Assembly (NCBI GenBank): GCA_008632985.1
Contig: QPGO01000012.1
Location: 186,001-250,000 of the forward strand
DNA from: Psammoneis japonica
Lineage: Eukaryota
Reading direction: 5' to 3'
DNA length: 64,000 nucleotides
Shown: positions 12,230 to 63,629 of the stretch, one piece after another
How positions within the stretch are numbered: position 1 is the first letter of the stretch
Layout: each line of letters starts with the position of its first letter
The notes under the pieces: generated by a model
Databases searched by the model: none
Seen by the model: only the letters and a program-made list of their open reading frames with translations
What the model was told of the DNA's origin: nothing
Position numbers and translations under genes: made by a program

Positions 12230-15200
12230 GGTGGGCAGCATGCAGTGCACAGGTTGTGCAGCATTGGCAAACAACCCAGAAGAGAAGAGCAATCAATGGA
12301 AGTCTTGGATGGCAATGAAACAGCAGATGCATTGTGGAAGAGGCATGGCCAACCAGAGATGCCATGTGGTGAATGGGCTCCAAAGACACCAAAGAGCAAC
12401 AAGTCAAGAAGCGAGATGCATGTCTGAGGATCGTCCCGTCACAGCAAATGTGTCTGGCCAACCAACCATGCAGCATTCCCAGTGGTGTGTGCACATCCAG
12501 ATGGGATTGTGCAGCCTTGCAAAGCAATGATGCCATTTGGGGCCATTCTTGGTGTCTTTGAGAAGTGGGCTGAAGACAAATTTGGCACAGAAGCCAGCAG
12601 TTCACAAGTGCCTGTGGGCCTCACTGGCAGTGAGTTTTGCAGCAGCAGCACTGTGTTGGGACTGTGAAGGAATGTGGCACAGATGGCAGAGCATGCAGAC
12701 ACCAGGGCTTGGCTTGTCATTGGGATTGTGGAGGAATGTGGCACAGATGGCAGAGTCCACAAACACCACCAGGGCTTGGCTTGTGGATTGGCTTCTTTGG
12801 GGTGCAACAGCCAAAAAAGCAACATTGAAAAGTTGTCAAAGTTGCAACAAAGCATTGCAGCCAGTGCAATTGACTTTTCTTGGTGGCAATCATGGAAAGC
12901 AGTGACCCGATGGCATTGTCAATTTTGATGCTGGCAGGAATCTTGCATTGCCGACACATGATTTTCACATTGCTTTGCACTCAAGTTGGGCATGTTCTCA
13001 AACATTGAAGGTTTCAGTGGCTTTGCAATTTTGTGTGATGTTTCCCAAACTGTCCCTGGATTTGTGTTGGTGGTGGAACTTTGCAATTGTCATCGCACTT
13101 GGAGAGAGAATTGGTGACATCTTTTGGGAAGCATCTGTGCTGTGCATTGGGGCTGGGATTTGCATTGGATGGGACAGCAGCTGGGTGGGGCACAGCATGG
13201 CTTGACAGCTTGTGGCACTGCAGCAGCAGTGGTGTGGCATGATGCCTGTGGCTGCACAGATGTGGTGGCATCATGGCAACACCATGAGCTCCTGTTGCTT
13301 GGAGCAGCACAAGCTTGTGCATGTGCACAGGACAGGTCATGCCTGGTGACCCAAACAGCTCACAGGAATTCAAAGCATGCAATTGCGTGCAAGATTCAAC
13401 TGCATGTGGTGAAATCTGTCAGCCAGATCTGGCCTCATGAGATGGATTTGGCCATCTGTCAGGTTTGCTGAAAGGACCCAGTGCTCTAGAAGACAGTTTG
13501 CAGCACACAGTGTGTTTGGTTGGGTGTGACATCATCTTTGGCACCACAGGAACATTTCTGGGTTGGCAACCATGCTGGGGCATGACACACTGGCAGGTCT
13601 TGGGTGCAGCCATTGTTGTTCTTGCTGCTGGGCTTTGGCTCCTCCATGGCCACAGCAGCTGGCACCAAATGCAATCTCCTTTGGCATTTTTTGCTTTTTT
13701 CTTGGCTTTGCTGCAAGTGCAAAAGACAATGTGGTGAGCAACAATGAATCCACTTGGAGCAGGAGACATTGATGGTGTGTCCTTGAACTGACCCAGAGTG
13801 AGCTCCAATTTTCACTTTCTTCATCCGAGCTTGCGATGTTTGCATGCAGCCTCTGCAACAAAATGGAAAAAGTGCTTCATTGTTGCACCCAGAAAAGCAA
13901 ATTGACTCCTTGATGATGTGGGTGAATGCCACAACGACATGTCCCCAAATGAAGGCTGCAGGCAGCCTTGAAAATGAAAGAGTTGTGCCATGCAAGTTTG
14001 GCCATGTTGTCAAGTGCACTCATTTGTGCTGTTGCTCTCCAATGGTTTGAGTTTGTGTCACTGCTGCACCTTCAGAGCTTGTTTGAATGGTGCTGGTTTG
14101 CAAACAGCAGGCACAGGCTGGTTTCACAATTGAAAAAGACTTTTGCAATGATGGTTGAGAATTGATTTGGACAGCGCAGCACTGCCAGATGGATGATGGA
14201 CACAGAGGTTGGTTTCTTCAACAAAGTGGATTCCCAATGTTGTGGTGGGCATCATGGACAACAACTGCAAACTTGGTGTTCAAAGTGCTGCCATGCAAAC
14301 TTTCCAACACACCCAGAGGACACTGATGCATGGCAGCAGGATGAAAAGATTGGCCAGAGTTGGCATCACCAGATGGTGACATGGTGATGGGCACAGACAG
14401 TTTGAGCAGAGCACATCTGGCAAGCCACAAAGCAAGGCTGCACACTCCAATTTGGGCTTTTTTGTGCAGGATGATCAACAGGTGGCCAGAAGCATCTGTC
14501 CACACTTGTGGGTTCTAACTGTGTCAAACAGTGCACAAGGGGAGTCAACATTTTGAATTGATGAAATTGAAAATGAGCGGCACCAGCATGGATGTGACAG
14601 AGGCCAACTGCAATGAACAAACAACTGAAACTTGTCAACTTGGTCAACTCATGTTGCTGCCATTTTGGTCTCTCAGGTGCAGCTCTCTCCCAATCAAGAA
14701 ACCAAAATGCTGGCTGCTGCTGTGGCCTTGTTTTGGCTCATGTTGCACAGCACTCACATCATTGGTGCAAAAGTTGCAGAGTTTTGGGTGGGTTGGAACT
14801 GGTTGCACACTTTTGCCCACTGACTGAATGATGAAAGTAAAAACATGCCTCAAATGACATGGGCACAATGTGTCATTTGAATGTTCTCCATTGACTGCAA
14901 TGAGAAGATGATTGTTGCTGGAGAACTCAACACACACACCTCACACATGCAGTGTCATTTCCAAGTTTGACAAACACTTTGTTGGGATGAATGTGAGAGT
15001 CACACTCATCATGGATGTTTTCACAATGTCAAGTTGCACATTTGACACATGCTGTGCATTGGATGTTGGATGGTTTGCATCCTGCATTGTTGGTTGTTTG
15101 GCACTGTTGCGATTGTTTGCTTGTGAGTGGTGGCAGATTGTGATTTTTGGGAAATGTGGAACACACAGAAACCCTCATTGCAAAATGTGACAGATTCCAC

Positions 15201-18200
15201 ATTGAATTTTTTAAAAACATTTGAGTCCAAAAATCAAATGGTCATCAAAACAAAACAAAATTTGCACAACATGTGTGGGTGAGTTGAACTGGCAAGTCAA
15301 TGTCACCAAAAAGGAATCCTGCAAGGTCTCTTCTTCCACTTGTTTTTGGCAGTCTTCAGCAGCTGTGGTTTGTCTGGGCATCAAAGCAAACTCTGCAATT
15401 GCTGCAGTGCAGGTGTCTCTTGACACTGATCAACAACAATTGTGTGAAACCAAATGATTTGCTCCAAAGAGTGAGAATGAACCACACATTCAATCAACAT
15501 GGATGACACAAAGAAACATTTGTCTGATCTGTGTTAGAGACAAAAGATCTCCACTTCAATGCAACTGGATCTGGGTCTTTTGTCTTGCCCTTCCAACAGG
15601 GTGGTGGTGACTCCCAACTCCCCATCTTTTCTTGCGTGTCATGTGCCATGTGTTGAGTGTCTCCTCTCATTGGCAACAAATGGTCAACACACCAGAAAAG
15701 TGACTCCTGTGCAATCTGTTGTGCTGCTTTTGTTGCTTCTCAGCTCTAAAAACAAGGCTGGTTGCAGCTGTGTTGTTGATGTGATTGACCATGAGATGGA
15801 GCACTCTGCCCTTCCAACCAAGCTTGAATGAGCCTCACAATGTGACAACATGAGCAATCTTGACAAAATGTGGTGTGCTTCAGTGGAGTCAAGTTCACCA
15901 TTGGACCATCCACAGATCAGACAAACACACCATCTTGCATCTTTACATGCTCTGCATGAACCCAGCAGTTGTGAGACTTGCAGAGAAAATTTCAAACAAG
16001 GGCAGCCCCCCACGATGCAACATCTTTGTTGGGAGCCTGCAAGGCCCAACTTGCCACTTGAGATGTTGGCGGGCAAGCACTTGGGCACTTTCACCATGCA
16101 AGACATGAAGACAAAGGGGTGGCAGATGGCTTGACAAAAAGGGGGGGGGGGGGGGGACATGCCCACCAGTCAAAATGATGGCAGCTCTTTGTTTGCCTTG
16201 GAATTGTTGGCTTGGGCAACAACACTCTGGTGTCCACCAACTCTGCTTTTAGTTTGGTTCTGTTGTCTCTGTTGGATTTGCCATTCTCTCCACCTTCCTC
16301 TGGCATCAAAGGTTGCACCAAGGCAGCTCTTGTTTGACACCCCAGTGCTCACTTCCCACTTTGCTTGACAGCAGAAAAAAAAACAGTTTCTTCTGTTTCA
16401 ATGTCACCTTTGCAGGCCAGTTCCATCCACCTCAATCCCAAGCCAACTGCACAAAAAATTGACATTCTCAGCAAATTCCAGCTGCAGCAAATCTGGCCAT
16501 TGTGCGGACAATTGAATTTGACTGAATGACAGGTTGCATTTTGCTGCAAGTTAGAACAAACATTTTGATTTTAAATTGTCACTTGGTTGTTCCTGGCGAG
16601 CTTTGTTTTGAGTTGCCGGTAGATTGCATCACTTGTTTGGGACTTGCATTGCAGAGATGATGGCAGAGCATTGCTCAACAGCATGCAGACAGCCTTTGGA
16701 CTCCTCTGGGCAGTCAGCCATCTGGGAGGAACTCTGTGCAGCCAGCTCATTGTGTCCTTGGATGTTCCAAGCAAAACCTTGGTGCTCCATTTCCTGTTTC
16801 TGAGCATCAGCACTTGAGGCCCAAGCTGTCAAGCAGCACCCCAGGCTGCACCCTGCAGATCTGCCAGAGCTGCACCTGCTTCTGGCTTGGCTGCCACTTC
16901 CTCAGCCACCACCATGATGGGTGCTCAAGGTGCTGTCCATGACAAAGCATCTCATTGTCCTTGGGCTGTGCTGCAACACTTTGACTGTGTTTGGGTGGTG
17001 TGCAGTTGAGGATGCAGTCATGTGCTTCCTCCAGCATTTTGGAACATTCACCCAAGCCTTGGCACACTTTTGTTCTTGATGCCCATGCAGCAAGATTTCC
17101 ACAGAATGTTTGTGGCTGCATGCCATTTGGGAAGAAAACTGTGCCAGTGATTTCACTTGCTCCAAGCTGCAGCCTTGGCTGGTGCCGCTTCTTTTCAACA
17201 ACCCAGTGGCAACCTGAGCTTCACTTTGCACAAAGTTGGAGCAGCTGATGTGGGGCCAAACATTGCTGTTGATTCTGAATGTCAGCACAGTCTGAGCAAA
17301 TGCCATCACACATGATTGGTGGTTGTTCAGAGCAATGCATGGCACTTGGATTGTCAGCTGCAAACAGCCTCTGGTTTTCACTTTGCCAAAAGTTGGGACC
17401 TGCACCTGGCACACACCACCAGAACCTCAATGAGTCCATTTTTTGCAAATCTCAGTGTGTCACATTGGATGCGCCATTGACAGGCCAGATGGCAAAACAG
17501 CGGCTGTTTTGGATGCAAAAGTGCCATCCCTGTTGCAGTTTTGGGTGCACTGGAGCTGGTCACATGCTGCAGTTCAGTCAACTGTAAAGATGTGCTTTGA
17601 CATGACAGACACAACATCATCTGACCATTCTCTGTTGACTGCAACAAGATCGCAGCTTCTGTGAACTCCAGTTTGGCACCCAATTGATGCGCCAGTCAAT
17701 GTTGCACAAAAATGTTGCTGCAGAGATCTGTTGAAGAGATGCATGGATGATCATGTGTGCACCTTGCCAAAGGTGTGCCATGCAACCATTGTTGTCATCT
17801 CTGCTCTGGCGCCATCTCCAGCATTGCCAGCCAAGCTCCGCACACTCCAGAGGTGCGCGACACCTGCTCTGTGGGCAGCACATGGCACTGCAGGTCAGGT
17901 GATGCAGTGTGGCATCTGTTTGCCAGCCCAGCCCCTGAATCACCCTGACTCAGTGCCCCTTCCCCTTTCCCCAGACGAAAGGGAGAGTGCTTTGTCGGGG
18001 ACTTTGGTGCTCCGCCAAGAAGCAGCAGGGTGTGCTGCTGGCACATCTGGATGACCCAATGTTTGTCTTGATGACAAAGACCCAGACCAGCCAAATCTTT
18101 GGTGACTCTTTTGTGATCCTGGCATGGAAAGCCGTGCAACTGGGGTCTGTTGCAATGGCGAAAGGTGGGGGGGTGAAAACGCGCCACCGCCCACGGAGCA

Positions 18201-18500
18201 GGAACAATTGTTTTTGTGTGAAACAATGATGGGTCCAAGCGTTCCACCTCAGTCTGATGGTTGCAACCGTGCCAAAGATTCAAAATGCAATGTTCACATT
18301 TTACAACAGAAAAGTGTGTGGCCAGAAACTGCTGCTTCCCCTCTGTTTTCATCGCACCGGTCGTGCAAGCATTGCCAATGCTTGAATGCACACCGATTCG
18401 ATGTCTCGCGCAGCGCCGCCGCGGAGAATTCCGCGGAATTCCGAGGCGCGAGCGGCATCACATCGTCGCGCGTTGATCACGTCTTGAAGACTCACTCATC
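12230..18500. other. Hypermutated domain 1 (TpA- and CpG-depleted, TpG/CpA-rich relic DNA)
   Basis: Only scattered TA dinucleotides over ~6 kb; six-frame ORFs are Cys/His-rich and almost Tyr-free. CpG returns near ~18150-18500 while TA stays rare. Confidence 0.9.
12657..12788 (+). repeat. Two-copy tandem repeat, unit ~64-68 bp
   Basis: tggga[c/t]tgtg[a/g]aggaatgtggcacagatggcagag...caccagggcttggcttgt starting at 12657 and 12721. Confidence 0.85.
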
Positions 18501-18521
18501 ATCGCATCTTGAGCGCCTATT

Positions 18522-24365: not shown

Positions 24366-27300
24366 CTAGTTCAGGTGAATCTGAAGCAACCCGAAGCTTT
24401 CGAATCCAGGGGAGTTAGAGATATTGTCTTCGCCGAGACAGAGATCGTAGGCAAGCTCAGCCAGATAACCTGCCATTGCCAATTTCTTGGACCAAAGAGT
24501 GCCACCGACTTTAGACTCTTCTAGGTGTTTCAAGGCCTCGGCATCCCATTGGAACAAGCCATCAGGGCCTTCTGAGGTAAGCAAATTTGTGACGTCTTTA
24601 TCACTGCGTGACCACCCAAAGAATGTGACCATCTCAAGATCCTCATACCATCCTTTCTGTTGTGACTTGATTTGCTCTTTCATGTCTCGACCGATTTCCT
24701 TGGATGGATACGAGGAATAGAGAGCATTGTTGATGTGCTTAGATTCGGTGAGCTTAGAGCACTTTAGATGCTCATCGTCTCGCACTCCAAAATTTGTGTT
24801 GGCACCTGAATTCTTTCCCGACCTGACGGGTGTGCAGAAGTGACACAATCCGTGCGCACCTTCCTTCATGCGACGATCTCCAGTGCACTTCTCAGACTGT
24901 GCCTTTGGGTGGAGTAACAAGGATGTAGTGCCACTCCGAAACTCAATGTTTGGGAGGATATGGCCGCGGCTGACCATCAAAGCCGCCATCAGCGTTAGAT
25001 TCTGTTCTGCCCATTGGAGTGTCCAGTGGTTGCGGTGAGTGTCATAGTTCTTGAGTCACTGACGTTTGTGTGTCTCGAGTCGTTGCATCAGAATCGGAAC
25101 TAACTGCACGGTTTGTTGCATTTGCTCCGGACCAAAAGACATGAACTCGTCTACAACCTTGACCGCACTCGCTTGCCACATCGGATTCTCACAGCACGGA
25201 CGACTAACCTCATGGTTAGCAGGATCAACTGGAAGGACAGGAGCAGGAGCTGTGGTCTCACTGGGTAGTTCCTTTTTTTCATAAATGACAGGAAGGTGCC
25301 GAGCCTTGTAACATGAGTAGATGAGCTTGTGAACGAGCGAAGTCGGAGGGGAATCGAACCGCCAACCGGAGTTTTCATCATTCTCAGATTCATCCCTTGC
25401 CTCCGCCAACGTACCCTCATTTGTGTGAAACTTTGACGGCTTGTTTTTCATTGATCGGAAGAAGCGCACATTCATGAATGACTGCAACTGTGAAACGGCA
25501 AGTTTTGCGCACATGTCGATCGATGCCTGTGCCACGATTGGTCCGTCTGACTCATCCATTGCTTGAAGACTCTCGTCGCTGCTCATCATGTCCAGCATTT
25601 TGGATTCCGCTGCCACAGCTTCATCACATGCTTTGTTGTGTGCTGCAATTTCACGGACAAGTTTTGCCTGCTTCTCGGCCCGCAGGCGATCCTGTCGTTC
25701 CTTCCGGGCTGCCCTTTGACCAGCAGAGTCAAGGAGTTTGGCACGCTGCAGGGGTTCTTGCGAAATGCCGGCATCACGCCGGCACATGTTCCCGGCGGGA
25801 TCACGGTCCTCGGGGAAATCGAGTTCATCAAAAACCGTTTCGGGGATGTGACCCCCGTTGTCATCCCACGCTTTCATCAAGGTGGGGAAGGATCGGAGGC
25901 AAAGATCGCACTCTTCTTGGGAGACTTGCCGTTTGACAGCAGACATGACGGACTCAAAATCAGGACAACGCAGAGTTTTCTGGTCAATGACACCGGAGAC
26001 CACGAATCCCTTCAGAATCTTCTTCCGTTGCAACGACTGACGACGATTGTGTCCTTGTCCTTTCCAAGCTGAAGGGGAGTCTTTTCCAGGGCTCTTGCAG
26101 CCTCCAACTTGTTTGCGTGAGCATGGATGTCTAACTCTGTGGTTGTGGCTTGTTTCTTCAGGACAGATTTCGCAGCACTGAAGACATCAGCTTGATCGCA
26201 AGACGCTTCCGATCCGGTCCTTGCAGGGTTGGTCTTGCCGGAGGTTGTCTTCTCTTCATCATCAATTTTCGTCACTTCTGGGGAAACCGTGTTTGCATCA
26301 ATTTGTCCACGGTCACCATCCATGACAAGAATGCTGCGCTCGTCTTCAGCAGGTGCTTGGTCCAAGGCACCCGTGCGGCCTCGCAACTTGTGACGCTGTC
26401 TCTGCATGTGAGGCAAATGGACAAACTTGCGATGCATCACCATGCGCTTGAGCTCAGCTTTGTCAACGCCATCCCTCATGAACAGGACAAAGCCGACACC
26501 AGCATCGACTTTCGCATCGCCTCCTGGACACAGCCCGTGCACGTCCACTGAATGTGCACCGTCCTCGTTGCCGCGCGCATCTTTCGTGTGTCCTTTTCGG
26601 AGTTGACGTTCCGTCATCTTCTTGAACGTCAACATGACTGGCGCGGCTTCTCCAGAAGCAACCATTGTGATGGCAAGTTTCGCTCTGAGGCACTCAAATG
26701 ATGGATCTTTGCCTTTCTCACACTTTGAGTGATTTCCTGCATCTGCGTTGTCTTTGGCAGCGACAACGCGCCATTCTAAAGGGTCTCCAGGTTGGGGGCC
26801 TTTCATGGCAGCAAGCCCAGTGTCGTCCATTCCCATGTTGAGGGATGTGCTCATCGGATGTGCTTTGTTTCCACGACATGTTTCAACAAGGTCAAGAAAG
26901 GTTTTTGCACCTGTGGTCAGGTTGGAGACCACGTTTTCAAAGGCTTTGTCCTCCCCATCGACAAACATCGTATCGGCGCACAGAATGACCAAGGTTGCGG
27001 CGGCTCGCAAGGAGCGTTTGGCCGTGGCGCGATTGTCGGTCTTGCACTGCGTCGTCTTGGTTGTCGACAATTCACCATTCTTCCCCAGAGCCAACCTGCG
27101 ATGCCTCTTGGCTTCTCTTGTGGACACGGCCGTGTTTTCCGCTGTCGGAACGACACTGCGCTCCATCATTTTGGTGCATTTGTGATCTGCCAAAGCTGTC
27201 TTCATTTCGTCGAGCCCGAATGACTCACCGTCGTTTTGAACTGACTTCTTGCCAATCACTCGAATCTCGTCGTTTGAGGCAACTGGTGCGTTTCCCCTGG

Positions 27301-27922
27301 CGTGCCATTCTGTGTGCATGGGGTTGCCACTCGAGCGACTTTGAACCATTTTGTTGCCAGCTCGTCGCGCAGTGAAGGGAACCAGCGAGTGTTCCATTGC
27401 AAAGTCAATGGCTTTGGCGCGATCTTGTTTGGGAATCGTCAAAGCCATGTCAGCAAATTCCATCTTGCTGCACATTTGTGTTTCCTTGTTTGCAGGCATG
27501 CGGAAGTTTGCATGAAGATGACGCGGTGGCTCAAGCAGTCGCGGTCTCTTGTTTGTGGCATGCGCCCCTGGTTTCGGCGGCTGGTTTTCTTTGTCATTCG
27601 CACTTCGGCACACGTCCTCTGGCACGGCGAGGGAATTGGACGGACGTTTCGGACCGGCGGCTCTTGATTCTTGCGATCGGTCCATGCTCACATTCTCTTG
27701 CATTTGCTTCTGGCGGGCTTTTTCACCATTCAAATGACAGTGGATGTGCTGAACGTTGGGGAGTTGAGTGGCGCGAGCTGCTGTCATGGTCGCTCCTTTT
27801 GTCGTCGCTTGCGAAATGGAAAGGCTGTTTTCGACAACTTTGAGCTTGCTAACGACTTCTTTCAACTTCCGCTGTGATGCTTTCTTCCCACTGTTCAATG
27901 TGTTCTGAACCTCCATCAACAC
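24366..27922 (-). mobile_element. Degenerate large ORF, probably a pogo/Tc1-mariner-like DDE transposase, broken into three ORFs (26012-27922, 25056-26033, 24366-24989)
   Basis: Candidate catalytic triad MDDT / ILVMDG / KTNPARTGSEASCDQADVF, resembling DET / LLLDG / P..T...QP.D..VF, followed by ILKGFVVSGVID. No TIRs found. Confidence 0.55.
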
Positions 27923-46834: not shown

Positions 46835-48719
46835 TTTCGTTACCTACTTCGAAACTTCGACTTGTGTGTACATACAGTATTTCGAACACAAAGAAATATC
46901 CAGCAGGAGGAGTCTCTCAACTGCGATGACCGATGATAATGTGGTCGCAGCGTAGCGCGGGAAGCTCAAGCACCCAACAGGACTCCCACTGCTCGAGTGT
47001 GAGGGGGCCTAAGTAATTCTAAAAACCGTTAACGGCCGTTACTATGTAATTTGGTAGTATTTTGGTACTCTATATATGAGGCATTTATGTAGAAATTACG
47101 TACGTACAAACATAAGGGGAAACGAGCGTGGAGAAGAGACGACGCGAGCGAAGCACGAGCGAAGAGACCGACAATGATGGATGCAAGTGCCGGAGAGAGA
47201 CGCAAGGAGAGCAATCCAACGATATTGCAAGGGCGCAAAAGAGAGAAACGATCTATTTGAGTTAGTGCCATATCTTCAATAAAAAGAACAAAGCAAGAAG
47301 ACATTGGCATGCACAAAAACTTACACAAAGAAGCACGGCACCAGCGCCTGCAGAATGACCACATCTGCGGTGACATGGAACAACACAAGGAGGTGAGAAC
47401 ATACTTTTCTACAAATACAACGCAACAACGAGCAAACGACCAATAGAAACTCACCAGTAGGGTCAAAACTTGGGGTGCCTGGATCGTCAACGGCGGGAGG
47501 AACGACAGATGAAAGAGAGTCTGCTGGTTCCACGGAGCAGGACGACAAAAGCAGGCGGTAGATCGGCATGAGCAATGGTAGAAAGTTGGCACTTGGGATC
47601 GAGTGACTCGTCCAGTCCATAAAAGTCGTGGTAGTAGCTTGGAGAACGGAGGCAGCGCCATGGTGGGACGGCGTGGACCGGGACAGAAGCAGCACGCCAT
47701 GGTGGAACGGTGACGGAGCCAAAAACGGTGACGGCGACGGTGCACACCCATGGACTTCGATATCCCCATCTTCGAGTCCTATACATCAAGATGCGGGACA
47801 AGGAGGTTCAAGGTGAGCGCCATTGCGAACGAGAACGGGGGAAAACGAGACCTGATTCCGTGAGAATCAGAACTCACCACATTTTGAGTCATTCTGACCC
47901 ATTCTAGAGCCGTGGCTCACTCACATGGCACGACCCAATGGCGTACAACACTATCAAGCAAGGTAGGGGTCGGGAGGCGGTGTCGTACCGGTCAAATCGG
48001 CCAAAAGCGCCATTGTCGGAGGGAGCGGTGGTTGTCGATCGGCCGCTCGGAAAAATTATGAGCCATCAACTCGACCGCGCACCGTTCGGAGTCGAACAAA
48101 ATTTCTCCGGTACAAAATGTACACAAATGTACGTCAGTATAAAAATCGTGTAGAAGGGTTGTAAGTAGAACCGTTACTCTCTCTATGTAGACTACAAGGA
48201 TTCTGCCGTTAAACTATACCAATATGTATAATTCTACGTGGTCGATTTGAATCAATCCCACCAACGTTTTTGAATTTCGATCGTAATAACGGCTTTAGGT
48301 GCTGAGATGAATATAATATATAAGTTTGAATTAAATATCATATATAGCGTTAATAATTTTGAATGATGCGCGACTGCCAGTCGGCACCAAAAACCGTCGC
48401 CAATAAGTAAACCTGCAGTACAAAAGTACTCTTTGCAATACGTTGGTACTTCAGTCTTGCACATGAAAGCGCTCCCTAAGTATTTAACGGTCGAACTATA
48501 TATATAAAATCCTCACAGCGGGAGACCCTATATACGCTCCCGTGTGCACTCAACGCGCCTCGGTTACGACCTTCTCGTTGGGTTGCACAATGGCGAGAAC
48601 GACCCCAGCGAGGAGGGTGGACGACGAGGAGGGCTACCTCGTCGGTCTCCACCTCGTTGCTTGGACCCTTCTCGTCGGGTTCGGTGGGGCCGAACCCTCC
48701 TCGTCAGGCTCCATGAGTG

Positions 48720-51700
48720 CACAGGGCGCGCACCCACAGCACTTCAGGAAACACCAACTCCAACAAGTCCAAGGATGGCGATCGTGGAGACCTTCTCGGC
48801 ATGAGATTTTGGGACAGAAGGACAGACATGGTGACGGACATTCGCATCCCCGACACGGACGCGAAGTCACACCCATCCAAAACACCAGAAGAAGTCCCAG
48901 CAAGCCACGAACGTGAAAAGAAGCGCAAGTGCCTCCAGCCTTGTCTGGAACAATGCCATCATTTCACACCATTCGTTGCATCATGCAACGGGCTTTTCGG
49001 CAAAGAAGCCAAGGCGATGCTCCACAAGATGGCGTCAAAACTTTTGGACAAGTGGCAAAAGCCACATTCTGAAGCATGCGGCTGTGTCAACGCGAGGATG
49101 AGTGTCACCACAGTCAGGGCAACCCACCATTGCCTCAGGGGATCCTGCATTCCTGCCTCTCAGATCAGCTCCAGGCAACCCCAGTGGGAAGATGGTGCAG
49201 GTCTGTCCCTCTGCAAACACCAAAAGACCCGGACACAATCGACTGCCACCTGCCCAGACCGCATGCCAAACGACAGTCCACAGAGCACACTGACACCATG
49301 CCTGGAAGACAACAAAAACCCACCATCACAATGGAACATGGTGCCAGAATCAGTTCAAAATTTGCTCGCACTGCCTGCGGAAATGCGCGCGTCAACTGCC
49401 CCTCATTCGCGCAACTGCGCTGCTGCACAGTGTCCATTTTCACCATGTGTGCCCCGCTGCAATGACGCCAAAGGAATGAACCCTGTGGCGGCTCTGAATG
49501 ATTTCAAATTGGGAACCAATCAGATGTGGTTATCATGGGATGGCATTTAGAGGGGGGTGAAATGGGGAAGTTGTCATGCTCAAACTCTTTGACACTCACA
49601 AGAACAGTGAAAGGGACGTGTTTGAGCAAGAGACAAAGGCTTTCGAGCATTTGAGAAAGGCGAGGTTTTGTGTGAAAAATTCAGCAGACTGACCATGCTG
49701 CCCACATTTCACAACCCACTTGCAGAGCTGTGTTCAAGGAAAATTGACAAACATTGCAGGGTGATGTTTAAATTTCCTGCACTCTCTTGCTCAAACTGTG
49801 TTGTTTCTTGTCCTTGGAACATTGGCGTGGTGACACCATGGTGCTTGTGTGTTTTGTGTGTCTTGTGTGAAGAACAATGACTGGGATGCAAACAACTCAC
49901 AGTCTTTTGCTGACCCTGAGTGGTGGCAAGTTATCTTGAAAGGTGTGTGCAAGATTGCTTGGTCAAGCTGCTTTCGTCATGTGAAATCTTTGAGAGGCTC
50001 TTGCACAGCGTGGGGCTCTGTGACATGCAATGCCAGGTCATTCTTGATGTGCTTGTCCCCAAGTCTTGAGCGTGTGCTGGCGCACCATCCTTCACACAGG
50101 CGTGGGATGTCATCATGTGCAGGTCACTGGCAGAACTTCCACACAGCAGTGTTTTGTCTTTTTGCTTGTCAAAGAGATTGGTGGCAGGGTTCTATTGGAG
50201 GTCAGAGATGGTGTCACACATCACTCTTTGTCATTGGTCAACTTGTGGTCAAGGACAATGAGCTGAAGGCCATTGGGCACCTTGACTCATTTTGGGATTT
50301 GTGCCAACAACACTTCATTGTGGGAGAGCTGTGACAATGAACAAAGGATGAAATCATTGTGTTTGTTGTCAAAAAGCAAACATGCAAAGTGCCAGCAGCA
50401 ATTGTGCAATGACTGAAATGAACTCCTTGAGGTTGTGGCCTGTCAATGTTTTCTGCAAAGCACTGGGGGAGGTGCATCATGACAAAAACAAAAGGGGGGC
50501 TGACTCAGACATGCTGTGCTGTGGCTCACAGGGCTTTGAGAGCAAGCCCATGCTTTGGTGCTGCAGCGTTGCATGTGACACAACATGGAAAAGGCACTGC
50601 TCACTGCTTCTCTTCAAATTGGAGCAAAAGATGTTGCACAAGACTGGCCATTTCACCGCAATTTTCTGCAGAGATGACAGTCATGTTCTAAAAGTTTCCT
50701 CTCATTCCAGCACTTTTAACCAGCTGCTGTTGCCATTTCCACAATCCAAGCACACAAAACCAAATTCTGACAAACACCCAGATGTGCAGCATTTCCTGGC
50801 TGTGGGCATTTCTGGACCAAGAAGAAGCAGGGTGGAGTGCAGTCTCTGTTGCAAAAGCAAACAATGACTGTGCTGCATGAGATTTGGGGGGACACATGAA
50901 TGGCAATGCTTTTGTGCTCTTGCTGTGGGTGCCATTGCTGCCACTGCCACAGGTGATTTGGAGACCTTGAGTCAAATGATGTGCCAGCACCTCATCTCAA
51001 CCCTCAGATCAAGAAGCCAGCGCGCAGCACCGCACACTTGACAGCTGATTTTGGGGTGCAGGTGCTGCCATGCAAGATGTGGCTCACCTCAGTTGGTCAT
51101 GGTGCTGGTGGGTCATGGACATGATTTCTTGGAGGGCACCAAGTGCCACAGCAGTGGAGTCATGGAAAGCACGCAGAGTCGAGGCATCAGCACCTCTGCG
51201 ACATTTTTGGCCTTTTTTGGCAGAGTCGCTGGCAAAGAAACCTTTGCACCTGATGCAATGAAGGAGTGCTTGCATGGCTGCATCCACAATTGGGTTCACT
51301 GTTTCTTTGCAGTTGAAGCACTGGACAGCCCAGCTTGAAAACAAAAGCAGCCAAAAAGGCAAGTGAGAGGAGCAGCTCTCGCATGACTTCTGCTCGAGAG
51401 ATGCACACACAGGCTCGAGGACACCTGCCAAAAGCCACCAAAGAAGGCATCCATCTGTTCTGTTGGAAAAACTCAGAGAGTCACAAGAGACTGTTTGAAA
51501 GCAGGAAAGGAACAAGAAATGCAACAATCATTGTGTTAACTTAAAACTTTAGCCTGTGCATTGTGCTGGCAAAACCCAAACGCACAGACGGACAGAAATT
51601 ACTTGCGCAAAAACATCATAAATCAGCATAAATCCATCAGAATCATCCTCCAATCCTCAACGGACGCGACACGCGACGCCACACAAGACTCGACATCACA

Positions 51701-51730: not shown

Positions 51731-51780
51731 CAAGGCGGAGAGACGTCGAATACCGGTATTGACTTGCAAGACGTCAAACA

Positions 51781-59457: not shown

Positions 59458-60740
59458 GTCTGTGAAAAAAGTGAACTAATATGGCTTAGAGCTGAAGATG
59501 AGTATGAACGGATACGCGGGAGACAAACGAGATGGCGTAGTAGTGAGCCACGTATTCCGATCACGACTGAGAATGCGCGGAAGACAAAGGATATGATGGA
59601 ATGACGTCGTTGTAGGGCCCTATTCCGATAACGAGTGGCAAACAACGACAATGAAGAGTGATGATGACTGATGAAAGAGAGAGAGAAAATAGTAATAGAG
59701 TCGATCATCGATCACGAGTGGAGAAGATCGAGTGAAGTCATAAGTGTCATACTGCATGCAACAGATGCTCATCATAAACAAAGCTTGCCACGTTAATCTT
59801 GCTTCAACCACATACATAAATAAAACACGCATCATGCACAATCTTATGATACTGTACTGTAAAAAAAAATACGTACTGAACATAGCAGACAGACATTTGC
59901 AAAGGACATTATTTTCTTATCTTGCCGACTCCTTTTTCGATGACCCTATCACACAAGATACAACTTCAAGGGTTGCATTGCATCCGATGCTTTGCGTGTT
60001 GCGTGGCGGCCATCTTGTTCCAGATTTCAGACCACCTCCACACTCCACAATCGAGAGCAGTTTGCGATTGGAAGTCAGCAAGATTTGAGATGCCAGAAGA
60101 ACCAAAGAAGAGCACACATGAAGTTGTTTCAAGCACACTTTCAGCCAGTTTTTCAAGCACACTTTTGCGGTGCACAACCAGCGTTTTTTTTTTGCAGCCT
60201 TGTCTTTCAGCTGCAGAGAAGAAGCTCTCTGAATGCTCACACCGCCCTGCTGTCAGTGCATGACAATGCACTGCACATCTTTTGCAGCACCAGGTGCAGC
60301 TCTGTGTGCACTGGCATTGAAGTTGCCTGCGTGTTTTCAGCGCCAGGTTCCCCGCAGAACAGCCAACCACCATGGCGTCTTCTTCCGTCACTGACGGCAG
60401 CCACACCCCAACTAACACCAATGGTGCCACTGTGGCAGATGATGTCACTGTTGACCAGTCCTCCATCAAACTTTCTTCCAAGCCGACAGAGCGTCAGTTC
60501 GAAGAGATCACCACCCGCTTTGAGGTTCATGGCAAAGAATCGTCATGCAAGCCCATGACCCTCGCTGCCGCCCATCTGCAAGTCTTACAGCAAATTTTGT
60601 TCACTTGCCACAAGGACATTCAGATTCTTGACAACCACAACAACCGAGTTACGAGTGTCAACGTGGCAGAATGGATTGCTTCTCTCCAACATGAACAACA
60701 CTTTACCATCATGACGAATCGCAGCGGCAAAAAACGTCCG

Positions 60741-61132
60741 GACGAGTTCCAGGTCTAGGTGGGACCTTGCACTGCTGAACTGTGACATTGATGGTTTTTT
60801 GAATCGCGTCGCATGTCATGCACGTACATTTCTGCGTGATTTTGGCAAAATTTTGTGTCATTTTACAGTGCAACAATTGTCGGGCGATCCATTCAACAAC
60901 TTTTGACATTTTTTTCTTCTGCGCCATTCTCGAGTGTCTTAAGAATGGCGTGGGGCAGGCACATCATCCAAAACTTTGAGTGCGGGCAGGGGCAGATGTG
61001 CTGCAAACTTGGCTGTTTGTTTTGTGTTGAAGACAAACATGTCCATTGGCCAAAGTGCGAACTGCAGAGCTCGCACGTGGAATTCTACGGGGCAAATGTC
61101 ACAAAAAGTCCCACCCAGGACTGGAGCCCGTC
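60741..61132 (+). mobile_element. MITE family A, copy 2 (392 bp), TSD TCCG
   Basis: tccg|gacgagttccaggtctaggtgggac ... gtcccacccaggactggagcccgtc|tccg. Confidence 0.92.
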
Positions 61133-63053
61133 TCCGGCAACTCATCATTCATGTCACCGCATCCTCACAAAGACTCCACTTCATGAAATTTGCTCCCATC
61201 CACATGTCCAGAGCATTCTGGACTCAAACAACATGGGCATGAAACGTCATTCTGGAACGAGTCGGACATTGACACGGCTGCTCCGGCATGTCACATTGCT
61301 GCCGCCACTGAACATGCTCCGGTTGACAAAGCTGCCAAGTTGTTCATCAGTGACCTCGGAAGCTTCCAGACTGGGGTGCCACAGTTTTGCCTGGCAGCTG
61401 CTTCAATCCGTGCCGATGACGACGGACTTGCCACCCCACTTCGCACAGTGACTTTCACCATTGAAGCATTGCAAGGAGAATGTCGCACTGCCGGCAAGGT
61501 CTTGCTTTGCGCTTCAAACAAACTTCTGACTCATGTTGTGATGGCAAAAACTTGTTGCACCTCTCCTCTTGCCTTCTGCAACGCGGTCAAAATGCAAGCT
61601 TGACGCAATGAAGATGCCTTTGTTGCGCTGCTGTTGAACACTGCCCCGGACATGATGTTTTGTTTCAAGAACCACCTCAAGGCATTGACTGGTGTGAAGG
61701 ACATGTTCAAATCAGCGATTGTTGATGGACGTTGCAACATTCTCGTGGACCGTCGGAACTTCAAAACCATCTGAGCAGAGATTTCAACGTGCGTCATGAA
61801 TTTGATTCCATCTGTTTCAAAAGAATCCCACCCATCTCCCACATTTTCGGAACCCCCTCAAGTGTCTGGAGTCCTTGAAGAATTGTCAGACACTAGCAAA
61901 TCCATCGTGTTGGCTGGCATTCACAGTCTTGAATCTCTTGCATTTTCGGATGTCTCTCCATTGACTGATCATCAAGCTTCCGGTCTGACTCAACCTTCTC
62001 TGAATCAACCTGCTGGCTGAGGATGCGCTGGAAGAGGTCTCCCTGGATGAGGAACCACTCAAGGCTCGGCGGCACCTCCTCACATTTTCACTCACTGCTC
62101 CCAGTTTTTGCCACCCACCTTTGGATTTCCAGGATGTTGAAGCTTGACGTCTTCCCCGCATTCTCGCGCACAAGCCACACAGACAACCACTGGCTCATCA
62201 ATTGCATCAGTGCAATTGGCTGAAGTCCAACAGACCATGAATCAAGTGCAAGAGAAACATGACAAAGCCCTTGCTGAGATGCGTGAACAACATTCTCGGG
62301 ACATTGAGGCACTGAACACTGCCTTCACTGCTCAGCACATGAATGATGTGATGGCCATGCAGGACCGCTGCTCCCAACAACTGTCTGGCATGCAGTCACA
62401 GATGAATCAGATTGTCCAATTGTTGCAGGCAAGCCAACCCACACAGAGCATCATGCGGAAATGTCCTGACAACAATGAGACGCCAGAAAGGTCTGTTGAC
62501 CATTGAGACAAAGAGAAGGATTTGTCGCACTTCTCAGTGTCGCAAGTTCTCATTTCAAGCTGCCTCAGAACCTCTGCATTGTTGTGAGCCCCAGTCTTCT
62601 CCTTGGAGGAGCGCGGCCCAACCATGAACAGCAAGTCTTCCTCAGCTGCACCTTCGACTGCATGGCAACACACACATTAGATGGCAGACACCACACTCCT
62701 TCAGCAGATCGTGGAATTGACTTCTCCTGTCTCAAGACAAATGGGCCGATTGGGCACGAATTGAGGTCCAAGCTGCCACACCACACTGGACTCTGCGCCT
62801 TCAATGCCAATGGATGCAAGTTTGACAAGCGCGGCGGGGATCTTGATGTTTGCTGTCAGATTGCTGATGAAATCCAAGCGGACGTGGACAGAGTTTTGGA
62901 AATGTGTTTGGATGCCACCCAGTTTGATGTGCTCTCAGTGTGCAGGTCTACGATTTCAAAGTCCCTCCTCCACAGGAGAGGCACCTTTTCTTGCAGTTCC
63001 ACACCCTTTTCTACCCAATGCAAACCGGGCGGCACTGCAATCACATCGTGCAA

Positions 63054-63443
63054 GACGCGTTCCAGGTCTAGGTGGGACCTCGCACTGCTGAACTGTGACA
63101 TCGACAGTTTTTTGAATCACGTCGTATGTCGCGCACGTAGATTTCTACGTGATTCTTTTGATATTTTGTGTCATTTTACGGTACACTTGTTGAGCGATCC
63201 GTCCAACAACTTTTGACATTTTTTGTTACAGCGCGATTCTATAATGTCTTAAGAATCGCGTAGGGCAGGTGCATTTGCAAAAACGTCGAGTGGTAAGAGG
63301 CATAATTGTACCACAAACTTGGCCGTTTATTTGATGTTGAAGATAAATATATCCATTAATTAAATTCTCGTACTACGGAGCTCGCACGTAGAATTCTACG
63401 GGCCCAATGTCACACGGAGTCCCACCTAGGGCTGGAACGCGTC
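63054..63443 (+). mobile_element. MITE family A, copy 3 (390 bp, least eroded complete copy), TSD GCAA
   Basis: gcaa|gacgcgttccaggtctaggtgggac ... gtcccacctagggctggaacgcgtc|gcaa; 25-bp TIR with 2 mismatches. Confidence 0.95.
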
Positions 63444-63629
63444 GCAATTCCATCTCGGCCCGACTCCGTTCCCAGGAGTTTGATCCATCAGGTTGGTGGT
63501 CCATTCAAGTGTTTGACGGTCGCAATGGGTGTCAAGTTGTGTGTGTCTCATGCTGCAGAGTCTGCACTAAGAACCAATGACAACCAGGGAAGACTGCAGC
63601 CTGCGCTCAACAATTGCATTTGCTGCATC

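What the first reader, a model, noticed from the sequence alone, without database searches (positions are those of the whole stretch)
12230..63629. Domain-restricted TpA->TpG/CpA hypermutation of repeats: a candidate reverse-RIP genome-defence system
Seen: four multi-kb domains (~12.2-18.5, 25.4-43.8, 48.7-51.7, 60.0-63.6 kb) have almost no TA and a large TG/CA excess, while neighbouring genes have normal TA. Every recognisable transposon protein relic lies in or runs into these domains, and expected Tyr positions read Cys or His (TAY->TGY/CAY), e.g. RLE KSH/KRKC/KPH/CGC and APE SCCRVC. Established: 5mC deamination explains CpG->TpG/CpA, and diatoms methylate transposon CpG via DNMT5, but that does not remove TpA. 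Fungal RIP makes CpA->TpA, the opposite direction. Inference: a second, strand-symmetric A:T->G:C process acts at TpA in silenced chromatin, for example a DNA adenine deaminase, a mutagenic base modification or biased error-prone repair. I know of no description of this, but a literature check is needed.
Basis: partly seen in the sequence, partly recalled or inferred. Interest (0 to 1): 0.95.

Follow-up and report, generated by a model that had tools for sequence, protein, structure and literature searches.

The report
TpA-erasing hypermutation of diatom transposon islands
Silent, transposon-derived islands in this diatom-like genome have had almost every TA step rewritten to TG or CA, the same foreign-DNA mutation recently measured in an unrelated alga, so this defence may be widespread.

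Summary
Five sub-domains (28.9 kb in all) hold 97 TA where the flanks' density predicts about 1,190. TG and CA nearly double.

Polarised comparisons show conversion in place. In a copied host-gene fragment inside a domain, 0 of 14 TA and 1 of 32 CG survive. A repeat with 25 aligned TA outside keeps 5 in each inside copy, with 14-15 now TG/CA.

TpA loss is separable from CpG decay. D2a has TA o/e 0.08 but CG o/e 0.91.

Surviving TA sites are mostly YTAR (64 of 97). This points to a preference for an A followed by a pyrimidine.

One R2-like endonuclease relic is confirmed, and its conserved Tyr positions read Cys or His. The 'APE' relic is not confirmed.

A 2026 preprint measured TpA->TpG/CpA hypermutation of integrated viral DNA in Bigelowiella natans. 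My searches found no diatom report.

Verdict: a new member of a very recently described kind. The enzyme is unknown and chromatin targeting was not tested.

The parts
12225..18517 (.). Domain D1: TA-free and CpG-poor block, fully degenerate
   Evidence: over 12250-18200, 12 TA and 37 CG in 5,951 bp (o/e 0.03 and 0.11), with TG 1.88 and CA 2.02. The last TA before it is at 12224. TA returns at 18302 and becomes dense from 18518, while CG is already dense from 18353; the longest ORF is 177 aa, no longer than in shuffles. X1 contigs match about 5.0 kb with 0 differences.
25413..29303 (.). Domain D2a: TA-depleted but CpG-normal block with long Tyr-free ORFs, read as a young hypermutated element
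   Evidence: TA o/e 0.078, CG o/e 0.914 and GC 0.518, against about 0.48 in the flanks; the last dense TA is at 25412; see the ORF entry below.
26015..27934 (-). 640-aa open frame with 0 Tyr. A 376-aa frame at 25059-26186 (-) runs across the domain edge
   Evidence: 0 Tyr in 640 residues; it is longer than the longest ORF in all 200 dinucleotide-preserving shuffles (maximum 376). Searches found no Pfam family, no homologue and no viral relative.
29740..43795 (.). Domain D2b: TA-free and CpG-poor block, interrupted by an N run at 37425-37580
   Evidence: TA o/e 0.054-0.055 and CG o/e 0.13; dense TA returns at 43796.
29741..30238 (+). Copy of a host DTW-domain gene fragment (source 21038-21527) lying inside D2b. 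It serves as a polarised witness of the mutation
   Evidence: 75% identity. 0 of 14 source TA are kept (9 became TG/CA) and 1 of 32 CG is kept (26 became TG/CA). Bases in other contexts changed at 17-22%. The source gene keeps normal TA.
48636..51536 (.). Domain D3: TA-free block with CpG partly lost
   Evidence: TA o/e 0.041 and CG o/e 0.36. The last TA is at 48635 and the next dense TA at 51537. A (TA)n-rich stretch at 48.3-48.53 kb, just outside, is intact.
48609..49418 (+). 5'-truncated relic of the C-terminal zinc-knuckle and restriction-like endonuclease region of an R2-like non-LTR retrotransposon
   Evidence: 2,226 homologues, with the match at the C-terminus of proteins of about 1,000-1,160 aa; one of these, P0189, has a weak RVT_1 match; the top 7 fold hits are all R2 proteins; conserved Tyr reads H, C, H, C and RR reads CH; this is the only relic of the family in the window, and it starts at the D3 edge.
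59960..62948 (.). Domain D4: TA-free block with CpG about half retained
   Evidence: TA o/e 0.063 and CG o/e 0.58. The last TA is at 59959. TA is dense again from about 63.0 kb.
60746..61133 (+). High-copy repeat, copy inside D4. A sister copy lies inside D2a at 28866-29250
   Evidence: 86% identical to the 28.9-kb copy. 8 of the 17 adjacent double differences between the two inside copies are TG<->CA.
63054..63443 (+). Copy of the same repeat outside any domain, with normal TA
   Evidence: it has 25 aligned TA. The inside copies keep 5 each, and 14 and 15 are TG/CA. The reverse case (inside TA against outside TG/CA) occurs 0 and 2 times.
38846..39095 (+). Direct repeat pair with 42856-43107 inside D2b
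   Evidence: 75-79% identity. 6 of 28 adjacent double differences are TG<->CA.

Best explanation
The window comes from a diatom, or a very close relative. It alternates gene-rich stretches with islands of inserted DNA: a truncated R2-like retrotransposon, a high-copy short repeat, a captured gene fragment and unidentified elements.

Two DNA-level transition processes have acted in place inside the islands.
1. A TpA-targeted A:T->G:C hypermutation turns TA into TG or CA. It hits either strand site by site and works fastest on an A followed by a pyrimidine (5'-TAY-3'). It stops within about 100 bp of the island edge.
2. CpG->TpG/CpA decay, as expected from 5-methylcytosine deamination in methylated diatom repeats.

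The TpA process is faster, so young islands (D2a, D4) are TA-free but still CpG-rich, while old islands (D1, D2b) have lost both. TA->TG/CA can never create a stop codon, so it kills proteins by saturating missense changes (all Tyr to Cys or His, and others) while reading frames stay open.

The most likely chemistry is enzymatic deamination of adenine to hypoxanthine in DNA, by a deaminase recruited to silenced or foreign DNA. This is what has been proposed for the same signature in Bigelowiella natans.

Shown here: the conversion, its context, its direction, its domain restriction and its independence from CpG loss. Inferred: the deaminase, the methylation, the silencing and the defence function.
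For: Scale:
- 97 TA in 28,859 bp of domains, against 1,287 in 31,303 bp of flanks. TA+CG lost is about 76 per kb and TG+CA gained about 83 per kb.

Direction and in-place action:
- Host DTW gene fragment against its copy in D2b: 0 of 14 TA kept (9 TG/CA) and 1 of 32 CG kept (26 TG/CA). Other contexts changed at 17-22%, with A>G about equal to G>A.
- Repeat outside against inside: 25 TA outside, 5 kept in each inside copy, 14 and 15 now TG/CA, and the reverse only 0 and 2 times.
- Pooled transitions: 42 of 130 at TpA bases against 64 of 586 at other A/T bases (odds ratio 3.9, p 1e-8). The reverse-polarity control shows no excess. The three comparisons are not fully independent.
- 8 of 17 adjacent double differences between the two inside copies are TG<->CA, which means independent hits on the same ancestral site.

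Both strands, with no clustering:
- TG and CA counts are similar in every domain, and the runs-test z is -0.6 to +2.0.
- Tyr became both Cys and His within one relic.

Not a property of the element family:
- 80 of 80 related metagenome loci have TA o/e 0.41-0.86, and 0 of 1,165 windows of 800 bp fall below 0.25.

Separability from CpG decay:
- D2a has TA 0.078 with CG 0.914, and its GC is raised to 0.518, as TA->TG/CA alone predicts.
- The TA-free zone overshoots the CG-poor zone at the D1 right edge and the D3 left edge.

Context preference:
- 64 of 97 surviving TA are YTAR, against 227 of 1,286 in the flanks (odds ratio 9, p 2e-23) and 20.9% in the 80 related loci (odds ratio 7.3).
- Per-kb survival is 30% for YTAR, 2% for RTAY and 4% for mixed contexts.
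- Polarised products: YTAY gave 9 TG and 1 CA. RTAR gave 7 CA and 4 TG.

Open frames:
- The 640-aa Tyr-free frame in D2a exceeds all 200 shuffles.

Precedent and background:
- De novo TpA->TpG/CpA hypermutation about 1,000 times background was measured in B. natans viral insertions, with TpA-poor, CpA+TpG-rich clusters enriched in transposon domains.
- Diatom repeats are CpG-methylated in blocks of up to 30 kb beside unmethylated gene-rich blocks (passages of PMC5124317).
Against: - No enzyme, methylation, histone or small-RNA data exist for this genome, and the whole genome was not available. Deaminase involvement and chromatin targeting are therefore untested.
- The polarised samples are small (14 and 25 TA sites), and the two repeat comparisons share one reference.
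- The product-asymmetry test for the TAY preference is significant only in D1 (p 0.003) and D2b (p 0.013). It is not significant in D2a (0.084), D3 (0.73) or D4 (0.69).
- Only one island component is identified as a transposon. Most of D1, D2a and D2b has no recognisable origin.
- The only sequencing run that holds the region may be the assembly's own source.
- The age ordering of the islands rests on assuming both decays run in the same DNA for the same time.
- CpG loss by methylation is inferred from other diatoms.
Confidence: 0.6

Rival explanations
1. The same in-place, TpA-specific and domain-restricted process occurs, but the chemistry is not adenine deamination. In one version the thymine of TpA is enzymatically modified (5-hydroxymethyluracil or base-J-like, by a TET/JBP-type oxygenase) and mispairs with G. 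In another, a biased repair or error-prone polymerase step writes G:C at TpA in silent chromatin.
For: The data fix only the dinucleotide, the direction and the flanks. 'A followed by Y' on one strand is the same statement as 'T preceded by R' on the other. From recall, not from any call: dinoflagellates replace thymine by 5hmU preferentially in TpA and TpC, and TET/JBP genes are common in algae.
Against: No modification data exist for this genome. I know of no case where such a modification erases 95% or more of its own sites. The only study of this signature favours an ADAT2-type deaminase, also without proof.
Confidence: 0.2
2. Editing took place before integration. Retroelement RNA was hyper-edited by an ADAR-like enzyme, or its cDNA was deaminated, and the element was inserted already TA-poor.
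For: The D3 edge coincides with the 5' truncation point of a non-LTR retrotransposon relic. ADARs favour a 5' U, as stated in the preprint's Discussion.
Against: - Both strands are hit within one relic (Tyr->Cys and Tyr->His), and TG is about equal to CA in all domains. A single RNA or cDNA strand would give one product only.
- A host gene fragment and a short non-coding repeat are converted when they lie inside a domain but not when outside.
- Inside copies differ by TG<->CA at the same sites.
- Domains of 6-18 kb span several unrelated pieces.
Confidence: 0.04
3. The islands are foreign or ancient DNA whose TA- and CG-poor composition is intrinsic, either ancestral to the elements or produced by selection against TA and CG. 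On this view no in-place mutation occurred.
For: Most island sequence has no identifiable ancestor to compare with. D2a is multi-copy in run X1, so part of its TA-poor state could be inherited from a TA-poor master copy.
Against: - Polarised comparisons show loss relative to an unmutated host gene and an unmutated repeat copy.
- Relatives of the one identified element have normal TA in 80 of 80 loci.
- A working 640-aa protein with no Tyr is implausible.
Confidence: 0.04
4. The pattern is a sequencing, base-calling or assembly artefact at modified bases.
For: Only one study holds the sequence, and it may be the assembly's own data. Depth in D1 is about 38 against about 56 in the flanks.
Against: - Contigs built by a different assembler from a public run match about 5.0 kb of D1 with 0 differences.
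- A strand-specific miscall at palindromic TA would give conflicting TG and CA reads at every site and no clean contigs (inference).
- Substitution patterns behave like evolution: there is background divergence of 17-22%, and the two inside copies made independent TG/CA choices.
- 8 of 150 homologous proteins from other public metagenome sources are likewise Tyr-free.
Confidence: 0.03

Closest known systems
TpA hypermutation of integrated giant-virus and virophage DNA in the chlorarachniophyte Bigelowiella natans (Mettrop et al., bioRxiv 10.64898/2026.01.13.699255; abstract, Results, Discussion and term searches read)
   Same: - A:T->G:C only at TpA, giving TpG or CpA according to strand.
- Confined to discrete regions of foreign origin beside normal genome.
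- Long-term footprint of TpA-poor, CpA+TpG-rich clusters enriched in reverse-transcriptase and transposase domains and in unannotated ORFs.
- Proposed as a genome defence running in the opposite direction to RIP.
   Different: - That work measures the rate directly in mutation-accumulation lines. Here only the end state is seen.
- The lineage differs: Rhizaria there, a diatom-like stramenopile here.
- The B. natans regions are far from saturated (NCLDV region rho TpA 0.45), whereas here o/e is 0.03-0.08.
- That text does not mention CpG, diatoms or bases flanking the TpA.
- New here: nesting with CpG decay, the TAY over TAR preference, an edge that coincides with a transposon truncation point, and the stop-neutral logic.
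- Its supplementary tables could not be opened, so its flanking context could not be compared.
Repeat-induced point mutation (RIP) of ascomycete fungi
   Same: A DNA-level, context-specific transition hypermutation that inactivates repeats and transposons in place and leaves sharply bounded, compositionally aberrant islands.
   Different: - RIP makes C:G->T:A, mainly CpA->TpA, and so creates TA and stop codons. The process here destroys TA, raises GC and cannot create stops.
- RIP mutates all copies of a duplication. Here the source gene of a duplicated 490-bp fragment is untouched.
CpG decay of methylated transposons (5-methylcytosine deamination). Diatom repeats are CpG-methylated (PMC5124317, passages)
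   Same: This explains the CG->TG/CA half of the pattern in D1, D2b and part of D3 and D4. 26 of 32 source CG became TG/CA.
   Different: It cannot remove TA. D2a shows TA loss with CpG intact.
APOBEC3 and ADAR hypermutation of retroelements and viruses
   Same: A deaminase-type, neighbour-dependent transition signature used against mobile or foreign nucleic acid. ADAR shares the 5' U/T preference.
   Different: Those enzymes act on single-stranded cDNA or double-stranded RNA before or during integration, and they give strand-biased, clustered changes. Here both strands are hit equally, without clustering, in resident DNA.
R2-type non-LTR retrotransposons with a C-terminal restriction-like endonuclease (applies to the relic at 48.6-49.4 kb only)
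   Same: The family's C-terminal region folds like R2 proteins. The top 7 Foldseek hits are R2 structures, E 1.4e-4 to 1.8e-2. The region sits at the C-terminus of proteins of about 1,000-1,160 aa, one of which has a weak RVT_1 match.
   Different: No Pfam family covers the domain. The window's copy lacks the reverse transcriptase and is a dead, 5'-truncated, hypermutated fragment.

Membership tests
TpA-targeted hypermutation of foreign DNA (as in Bigelowiella natans) | A:T->G:C transitions concentrated on TpA, giving TpG or CpA | tested here: met
   0 of 14 and 5 of 25 ancestral TA are kept, and most became TG/CA. Transitions: 42 of 130 at TpA bases against 64 of 586 at other A/T bases. There is no general A>G excess outside TpA.
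TpA-targeted hypermutation of foreign DNA (as in Bigelowiella natans) | Confined to discrete regions, with neighbouring genome normal | tested here: met
   TA o/e is 0.03-0.08 inside and 0.58-0.69 outside. Edges are sharp to about 100 bp or less, with an intact (TA)n stretch about 100 bp outside D3.
TpA-targeted hypermutation of foreign DNA (as in Bigelowiella natans) | Targets are of viral, transposon or otherwise foreign origin | tested here: inconclusive
   One R2-like relic, one high-copy repeat and one captured gene fragment are identified. The bulk of D1, D2a and D2b has no recognisable origin.
TpA-targeted hypermutation of foreign DNA (as in Bigelowiella natans) | De novo rate orders of magnitude above background, measured in living lines | not testable with these tools
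   No mutation-accumulation or population data were available. Only one study holds the sequence.
Fungal RIP | C:G->T:A transitions (CpA->TpA) that enrich TpA | tested here: not met
   TpA is depleted about 12-fold per kb and CpA/TpG is enriched, which is the opposite direction.
Fungal RIP | All copies of a duplicated sequence are mutated | tested here: not met
   the DTW gene segment at 21.0-21.5 kb keeps normal TA and CG, while its copy at 29.7 kb is converted.
CpG decay of methylated repeats | CpG->TpG/CpA with CpG o/e far below 1 in repeats only | tested here: met
   26 of 32 CG became TG/CA. CG o/e is 0.11-0.13 in D1 and D2b, against 0.95-1.07 in the flanks.
CpG decay of methylated repeats | The regions carry 5-methylcytosine | not testable with these tools
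   No methylome was available. Methylation of diatom repeats is taken from PMC5124317.
ADAR/APOBEC-type pre-integration editing | Strand-biased, clustered changes inherited from one edited strand | tested here: not met
   TG is about equal to CA, the runs-test z is about 0, and Tyr->Cys and Tyr->His occur in the same relic.
R2-like RLE non-LTR retrotransposon (relic 48609-49418) | C-terminal zinc knuckle plus PD-(D/E)xK-type endonuclease fold | tested here: met
   the family model has mean pLDDT 77. The top 7 PDB matches are R2 proteins (probability 0.97-1.00), followed by cap-snatching PD-(D/E)xK endonucleases at non-significant E-values. Catalytic residues were not checked individually.
R2-like RLE non-LTR retrotransposon (relic 48609-49418) | Reverse transcriptase upstream in the same ORF | tested here: inconclusive
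   1 of 4 homologues over 1,000 aa in the 6-protein scan (P0189) matches RVT_1, at 28.3 bits against a cut-off of 29.6; no RT remnant lies upstream in the window, because the copy is 5'-truncated.

The most novel reading that the evidence does not exclude
Diatoms and chlorarachniophytes, and many of the marine protists behind Tyr-free transposon relics in metagenomes, share an ancient guided genome-defence system. In it a natural DNA adenine deaminase with a 5'-TAY-3' preference is directed, with insertion-edge precision, onto newly integrated DNA. The guide could be small RNA, homology or a chromatin mark. The system erases every TA within an evolutionarily short time, well before CpG methylation decay becomes visible, and kills the element by saturating missense change while leaving its reading frames open.
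Probability: 0.3. Interest if true: 0.92.

Novelty: new member of a known kind. Interest (0 to 1): 0.72.

Why it matters
- A mutational genome defence that works on adenine or thymine at TpA was unknown until a 2026 preprint on one rhizarian alga.
- Finding the same signature at saturation in a diatom-like genome, and as Tyr-free relics in several marine metagenome sources, suggests it is widespread in the SAR supergroup rather than a curiosity.
- It would be the A:T->G:C counterpart of fungal RIP.
- It bears on how diatom genomes tame transposons. It also affects repeat and gene annotation: hypermutated elements escape Pfam and leave long, meaningless open frames that can be called as genes.
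- It points to a possible natural enzyme that deaminates adenine in genomic DNA. Engineered versions of such activity are the basis of adenine base editors.
- The TAY preference and the separation from CpG decay give concrete handles for finding the enzyme.

Tried and rejected
- The whole genome is not held. No genome-wide scan and no search for deaminases was possible.
- Six-frame read-through of D1 with X at stops gave 0 Pfam families.
- 253 domain ORFs of 70 aa or more gave none at gathering score. Sixteen ORFs in 21.9-25.0 kb also gave none.
- Rfam over the whole window gave 0 matches.
- The 640-aa and 376-aa frames of D2a had no homologues in two word-indexed searches, no Pfam match even at E 10 and no relative in viral contigs. 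The ESM Atlas gave only sub-threshold leads (0.83, DUF8286), which I do not use.
- A profile of the relic family against PDB sequences gave nothing significant (best E 0.24). The fold search was what identified it.
- 'APE SCCRVC' was rejected: no Pfam match, and it lies outside the TA-poor zone.
- Strand-coordinated clustering of TG and CA, as expected from a processive single-strand deaminase, was not seen.
- Sequencing runs: no RNA holder is listed. Run X2 behaves like RNA, with GT..AG joints of 89-103 nt, and has no cover over D1.
- Metagenome loci of the relic family were scanned for TA-poor stretches and none was found. The search favours intact copies, so this is a control on family composition, not evidence that other organisms lack the process.
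- Earlier notes of this scan held nothing on this genome and only unrelated phage dinucleotide cases.
- Literature searches for a diatom or stramenopile report of TpA hypermutation found none. The P. tricornutum mutation-accumulation paper (PMC6604790, passages) reports CG, CC and TG as the mutagenic contexts and a GC->AT bias, with no TpA effect. Subscription journals are largely outside that library.
- The first alignment given to the metagenome scan was too diverse. A narrower one worked.

Full report
**1. Observation**

In 1-kb windows, TA observed/expected falls from 0.4-0.9 to 0.00-0.13 over 12-18 kb, 26-43 kb, 49-51 kb and 60-63 kb, while TG and CA rise to about 2. At 200-bp resolution the edges are abrupt.

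I define five sub-domains.

| Sub-domain | Coordinates | TA o/e | CG o/e |
|---|---|---|---|
| D1 | 12250-18200 | 0.03 | 0.11 |
| D2a | 25450-29300 | 0.078 | 0.914 |
| D2b | 29740-43400, split by an N run | 0.054-0.055 | 0.13 |
| D3 | 48650-51400 | 0.041 | 0.36 |
| D4 | 60000-62800 | 0.063 | 0.58 |

- Four flanking stretches have TA o/e 0.58-0.69 and CG o/e 0.95-1.07.
- In total there are 97 TA in 28,859 bp of domains, against 1,287 in 31,303 bp of flanks.
- Per kb, TA+CG falls by about 76 and TG+CA rises by about 83. The other dinucleotides are roughly unchanged. This is what a conversion of TA and CG into TG/CA predicts.
- GC content agrees. D2a, which lost only TA, is at 0.518 against about 0.48 in the flanks. 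D1 and D2b, which lost both, stay near 0.48.
- The domains are complex sequence, not microsatellite.

**2. Is the sequence real?**

- One public study holds the region.
- Contigs that a different assembler made from run X1 cover about 5.0 kb of D1 in five pieces with 0 differences, at depth about 38.
- That run may be the assembly's own source, so this rules out an assembler error but not a chemistry error.
- Against a chemistry error, a strand-specific miscall at a palindromic TA would give contradictory TG and CA reads at every site (inference).
- The sequence also shows ordinary evolutionary divergence (section 3). Proteins from other public metagenome sources show the same damage (section 6).

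**3. Direction of change**

A self-comparison of the window gave two natural experiments.

(a) A captured gene fragment.
- A 490-bp piece of the neighbouring DTW-domain gene (21038-21527, normal composition; Pfam DTW E 1e-31) has a 75% identical copy inside D2b at 29741-30238.
- I take the gene as a proxy for the ancestor. Then 0 of 14 TA survive (7 TG, 2 CA, 5 other) and 1 of 32 CG survives (14 TG, 12 CA).
- Bases in other contexts changed at 17-22%. The four transition types are roughly balanced: A>G 13, G>A 14, C>T 13, T>C 13.

(b) A short high-copy repeat.
- It has one copy outside any domain (63054-63443) and two copies inside (60746-61133 and 28866-29250).
- The outside copy has 25 aligned TA. 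Each inside copy keeps 5, and 14 and 15 are TG/CA. The reverse case occurs 0 and 2 times.

Pooled results.
- Transitions hit 42 of 130 TpA bases against 64 of 586 other A/T bases (odds ratio 3.9, p 1e-8).
- With polarity reversed there is no excess.
- The three comparisons are not fully independent, and the counts are small.

Independent hits.
- The two inside copies differ from each other by TG<->CA at 8 of their 17 adjacent double differences.
- A pair of direct repeats inside D2b does so at 6 of 28.
- This can only arise if the same ancestral TA or CG was hit independently on different strands after the copies separated.

The change therefore happened in place, on DNA, at both strands.

**4. 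Two processes, not one**

- D2a has lost TA but not CG. D3 and D4 are intermediate.
- At the right edge of D1, CG is dense again from 18353 but TA only from 18518. At the left edge of D3, TA stops at 48635 while CG stays dense to about 49.0 kb.
- TpA loss is therefore separable from CpG loss, and it is either faster or wider.
- If both decay in the same DNA over the same time, the ratio of log survivals gives TpA at least about 3-20 times faster. This is a rough inference, and a lower bound because TA is at a floor.
- CpG loss is the expected footprint of 5-methylcytosine deamination. Diatom repeats are CpG-methylated in blocks of up to 30 kb next to unmethylated gene-rich blocks (PMC5124317, passages read). 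Methylation of these particular islands was not testable.

**5. Anatomy of the TpA process**

Strand behaviour.
- TG and CA counts are similar in every domain.
- The order of TG and CA along the sequence is random, with runs-test z between -0.6 and +2.0.
- Events are therefore single-site and hit either strand. They are not processive runs on one strand.

Survivors.
- The 97 surviving TA are not a random sample. 64 are YTAR (CTAA/TTAG 31, TTAA 25, CTAG 8).
- This compares with 227 of 1,286 in the flanks (odds ratio 9, p 2e-23) and 20.9% in 288 kb of related elements from metagenomes (odds ratio 7.3).
- Per kb, survival is 30% for YTAR, 4% for YTAY/RTAR and 2% for RTAY.
- In YTAR both strands present the adenine as T-A-purine. 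In RTAY both present it as T-A-pyrimidine.

Products.
- In the polarised alignments, YTAY sites gave 9 TG and 1 CA, and RTAR sites gave 7 CA and 4 TG. That is 16 of 21 on the strand where A is followed by a pyrimidine.
- Composition agrees in D1 (p 0.003) and D2b (p 0.013). It is not significant in D2a (0.084), D3 or D4.

I conclude, with moderate confidence, that 5'-TAY-3' is the preferred target. This is equivalent to 5'-RTA-3' if the thymine is the base attacked.

**6. What the islands are, and what the mutation does to genes**

Pfam and the one recognisable relic.
- Pfam recognises nothing in the islands.
- The frame 48717-49547 has 2,226 homologues at E 0.001 or better among 1.84 billion representatives. 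It matches the C-terminus of proteins that reach about 1,000-1,160 aa. One of these has a weak RVT_1 match.
- A model of the family's C-terminal region (pLDDT 77) finds R2 retrotransposon proteins as its top 7 PDB matches.

Damage to the relic.
- In the alignment the window's copy reads KSH, KRKC, KPH and CGC where the family has KSY, KKxKY, KPY and CGY. It reads CH where the family has RR.
- In a 150-homologue alignment, the three columns with at least 50% Tyr read C, H and C in the window.

Position of the relic.
- It is the only relic of this family in the window. It begins at 48609, which is also the left edge of D3. No RT remnant lies upstream, so it is a 5'-truncated insertion.
- A TA-rich microsatellite about 100 bp outside is untouched.

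Family composition.
- Relatives in metagenomes have normal composition. 80 of 80 loci have TA o/e 0.41-0.86, and 0 of 1,165 windows of 800 bp fall below 0.25.
- The TA-free state is therefore not a family trait. That search does favour intact copies.

The same damage elsewhere.
- 8 of the 150 best homologues have no Tyr at all, and 12 have Cys/His at two or more of the three Tyr columns.
- They come from JGI, ENA and Logan metagenome contigs.
- The same damage therefore exists elsewhere. A caveat is that a mutated query attracts mutated hits.

Stop-neutral logic.
- TA->TG or CA cannot create a stop codon. TAA can become TGA, but every other outcome is a sense codon. This follows from the codon table.
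- D2a fits this. It keeps a 640-aa frame, longer than in all 200 dinucleotide-preserving shuffles (maximum 376), yet with 0 Tyr and no detectable relative.
- D1 has no frame beyond chance.
- Hypermutated elements thus become invisible to domain searches while still looking like genes.

**7. Mechanism**

- Shown: an in-place, DNA-level, TpA-specific, strand-symmetric, site-independent A:T->G:C process. It is restricted to inserted DNA with edges sharp to about 100 bp, is faster than CpG decay, and has a flank preference.
- Inferred: enzymatic deamination of adenine to hypoxanthine, which pairs as G, by an enzyme recruited to silenced or foreign DNA. I put this at about 0.5-0.6.
- Alternatives: a thymine modification that mispairs, or biased repair, at about 0.2.
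- I reject pre-integration RNA or cDNA editing. Both strands are hit within one relic, a host gene fragment and a non-coding repeat are converted only when inside a domain, and sister copies made independent choices.
- The trigger is not RIP-like pairing of duplicates, since the source DTW gene is intact.
- What marks the edge is open. It could be small RNA, a chromatin mark or something else.

**8. Comparison with what is known**

A full-text search found one: Mettrop et al., bioRxiv 10.64898/2026.01.13.699255. I read its abstract, Results, Discussion and term searches.
- In Bigelowiella natans mutation-accumulation lines, 231 of 302 nuclear mutations fell in two integrated viral regions.
  - All but one were A->G or T->C, and all of those were at TpA.
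  - The rate was about 1,000 times background.
  - The effect appeared in only some lines.
- That genome also has 124 TpA-poor, CpA+TpG-rich clusters, enriched for reverse-transcriptase and transposase domains. An ADAT2-like deaminase is proposed as the cause.
- That text mentions neither CpG, nor diatoms, nor bases flanking the TpA.
- Eight searches for a diatom or stramenopile counterpart found none. The P. tricornutum mutation-accumulation study reports no TpA effect (PMC6604790, passages).
- The window's P450 gene has its best named relatives only in diatoms. All named hits among the best 120 are diatoms, at 42-52% identity. Its own protein is not in the database. The host is therefore a diatom or a close relative not represented there.
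- This is a new member of a very recently described kind, in a second eukaryotic lineage and at saturation. It is not a categorically new system.

**9. Verdict**

- Interest is 0.72. The phenomenon is striking, barely described and mechanistically open. This locus adds lineage breadth, a flank preference, separation from CpG decay and the stop-neutral logic.
- The core discovery is already in a preprint, and nothing here identifies the enzyme.

Noticed in passing
window 21400-25400: This stretch has normal TA, no Pfam or Rfam match and very high summed contig depth in run X1 (about 340-5,800, against about 55 for single-copy flanks). Run X2 shows splice-like GT..AG joints of 89-103 nt at 23.3-24.3 kb. 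It may be an expressed multi-copy gene or an active element lying directly beside the hypermutated D2a. One open frame (25059-26186, minus strand) crosses the TA boundary at 25.4 kb.
   Followed up: partly
window 28866-29250, 60746-61133, 63054-63443 (inverted partial copy at 63629-63702): This is a short repeat of about 390 bp with very high copy number (summed X1 depth about 36,700 in bin 28387-29000). The copies inside domains are only partly TA-depleted (5 of 25 TA kept), so they may be recent insertions caught in mid-conversion.
   Followed up: partly
proteins P0132, P0178, P0219, P0225, P0241, P0257, P0262, P0269 (public metagenome contigs): Eight of the 150 best homologues of the R2-like endonuclease domain contain no tyrosine at all, and several read Cys/His at the conserved Tyr columns. 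The same TpA erasure therefore seems to occur in other environmental eukaryotes. Their DNA could not be fetched.
   Followed up: partly
window 48300-48540: A (TA)n-rich microsatellite lies about 100 bp outside the left edge of D3 and is fully intact. This is a natural marker of how sharp the edge of the mutated zone is.
   Followed up: yes
window 12656-12784: A 64-bp unit is tandemly duplicated (2 copies, 86% match) inside D1.
   Followed up: no
window 641-1693, 18836-20536, 20602-21618, 43948-44964, 45599-46843: The flanking genes have ordinary composition. They are a GST-like protein, a cytochrome P450 (best named relatives all diatoms), a DTW-domain protein, a peptidase-M64-like protein and a CBM96 protein with a PT repeat.
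   Followed up: partly
window 10001-29000, run X1: Contig depth over D1 is about 38, against about 55 in the single-copy flanks. This could reflect hemizygosity, a coverage bias against this composition, or nothing at all.
   Followed up: no
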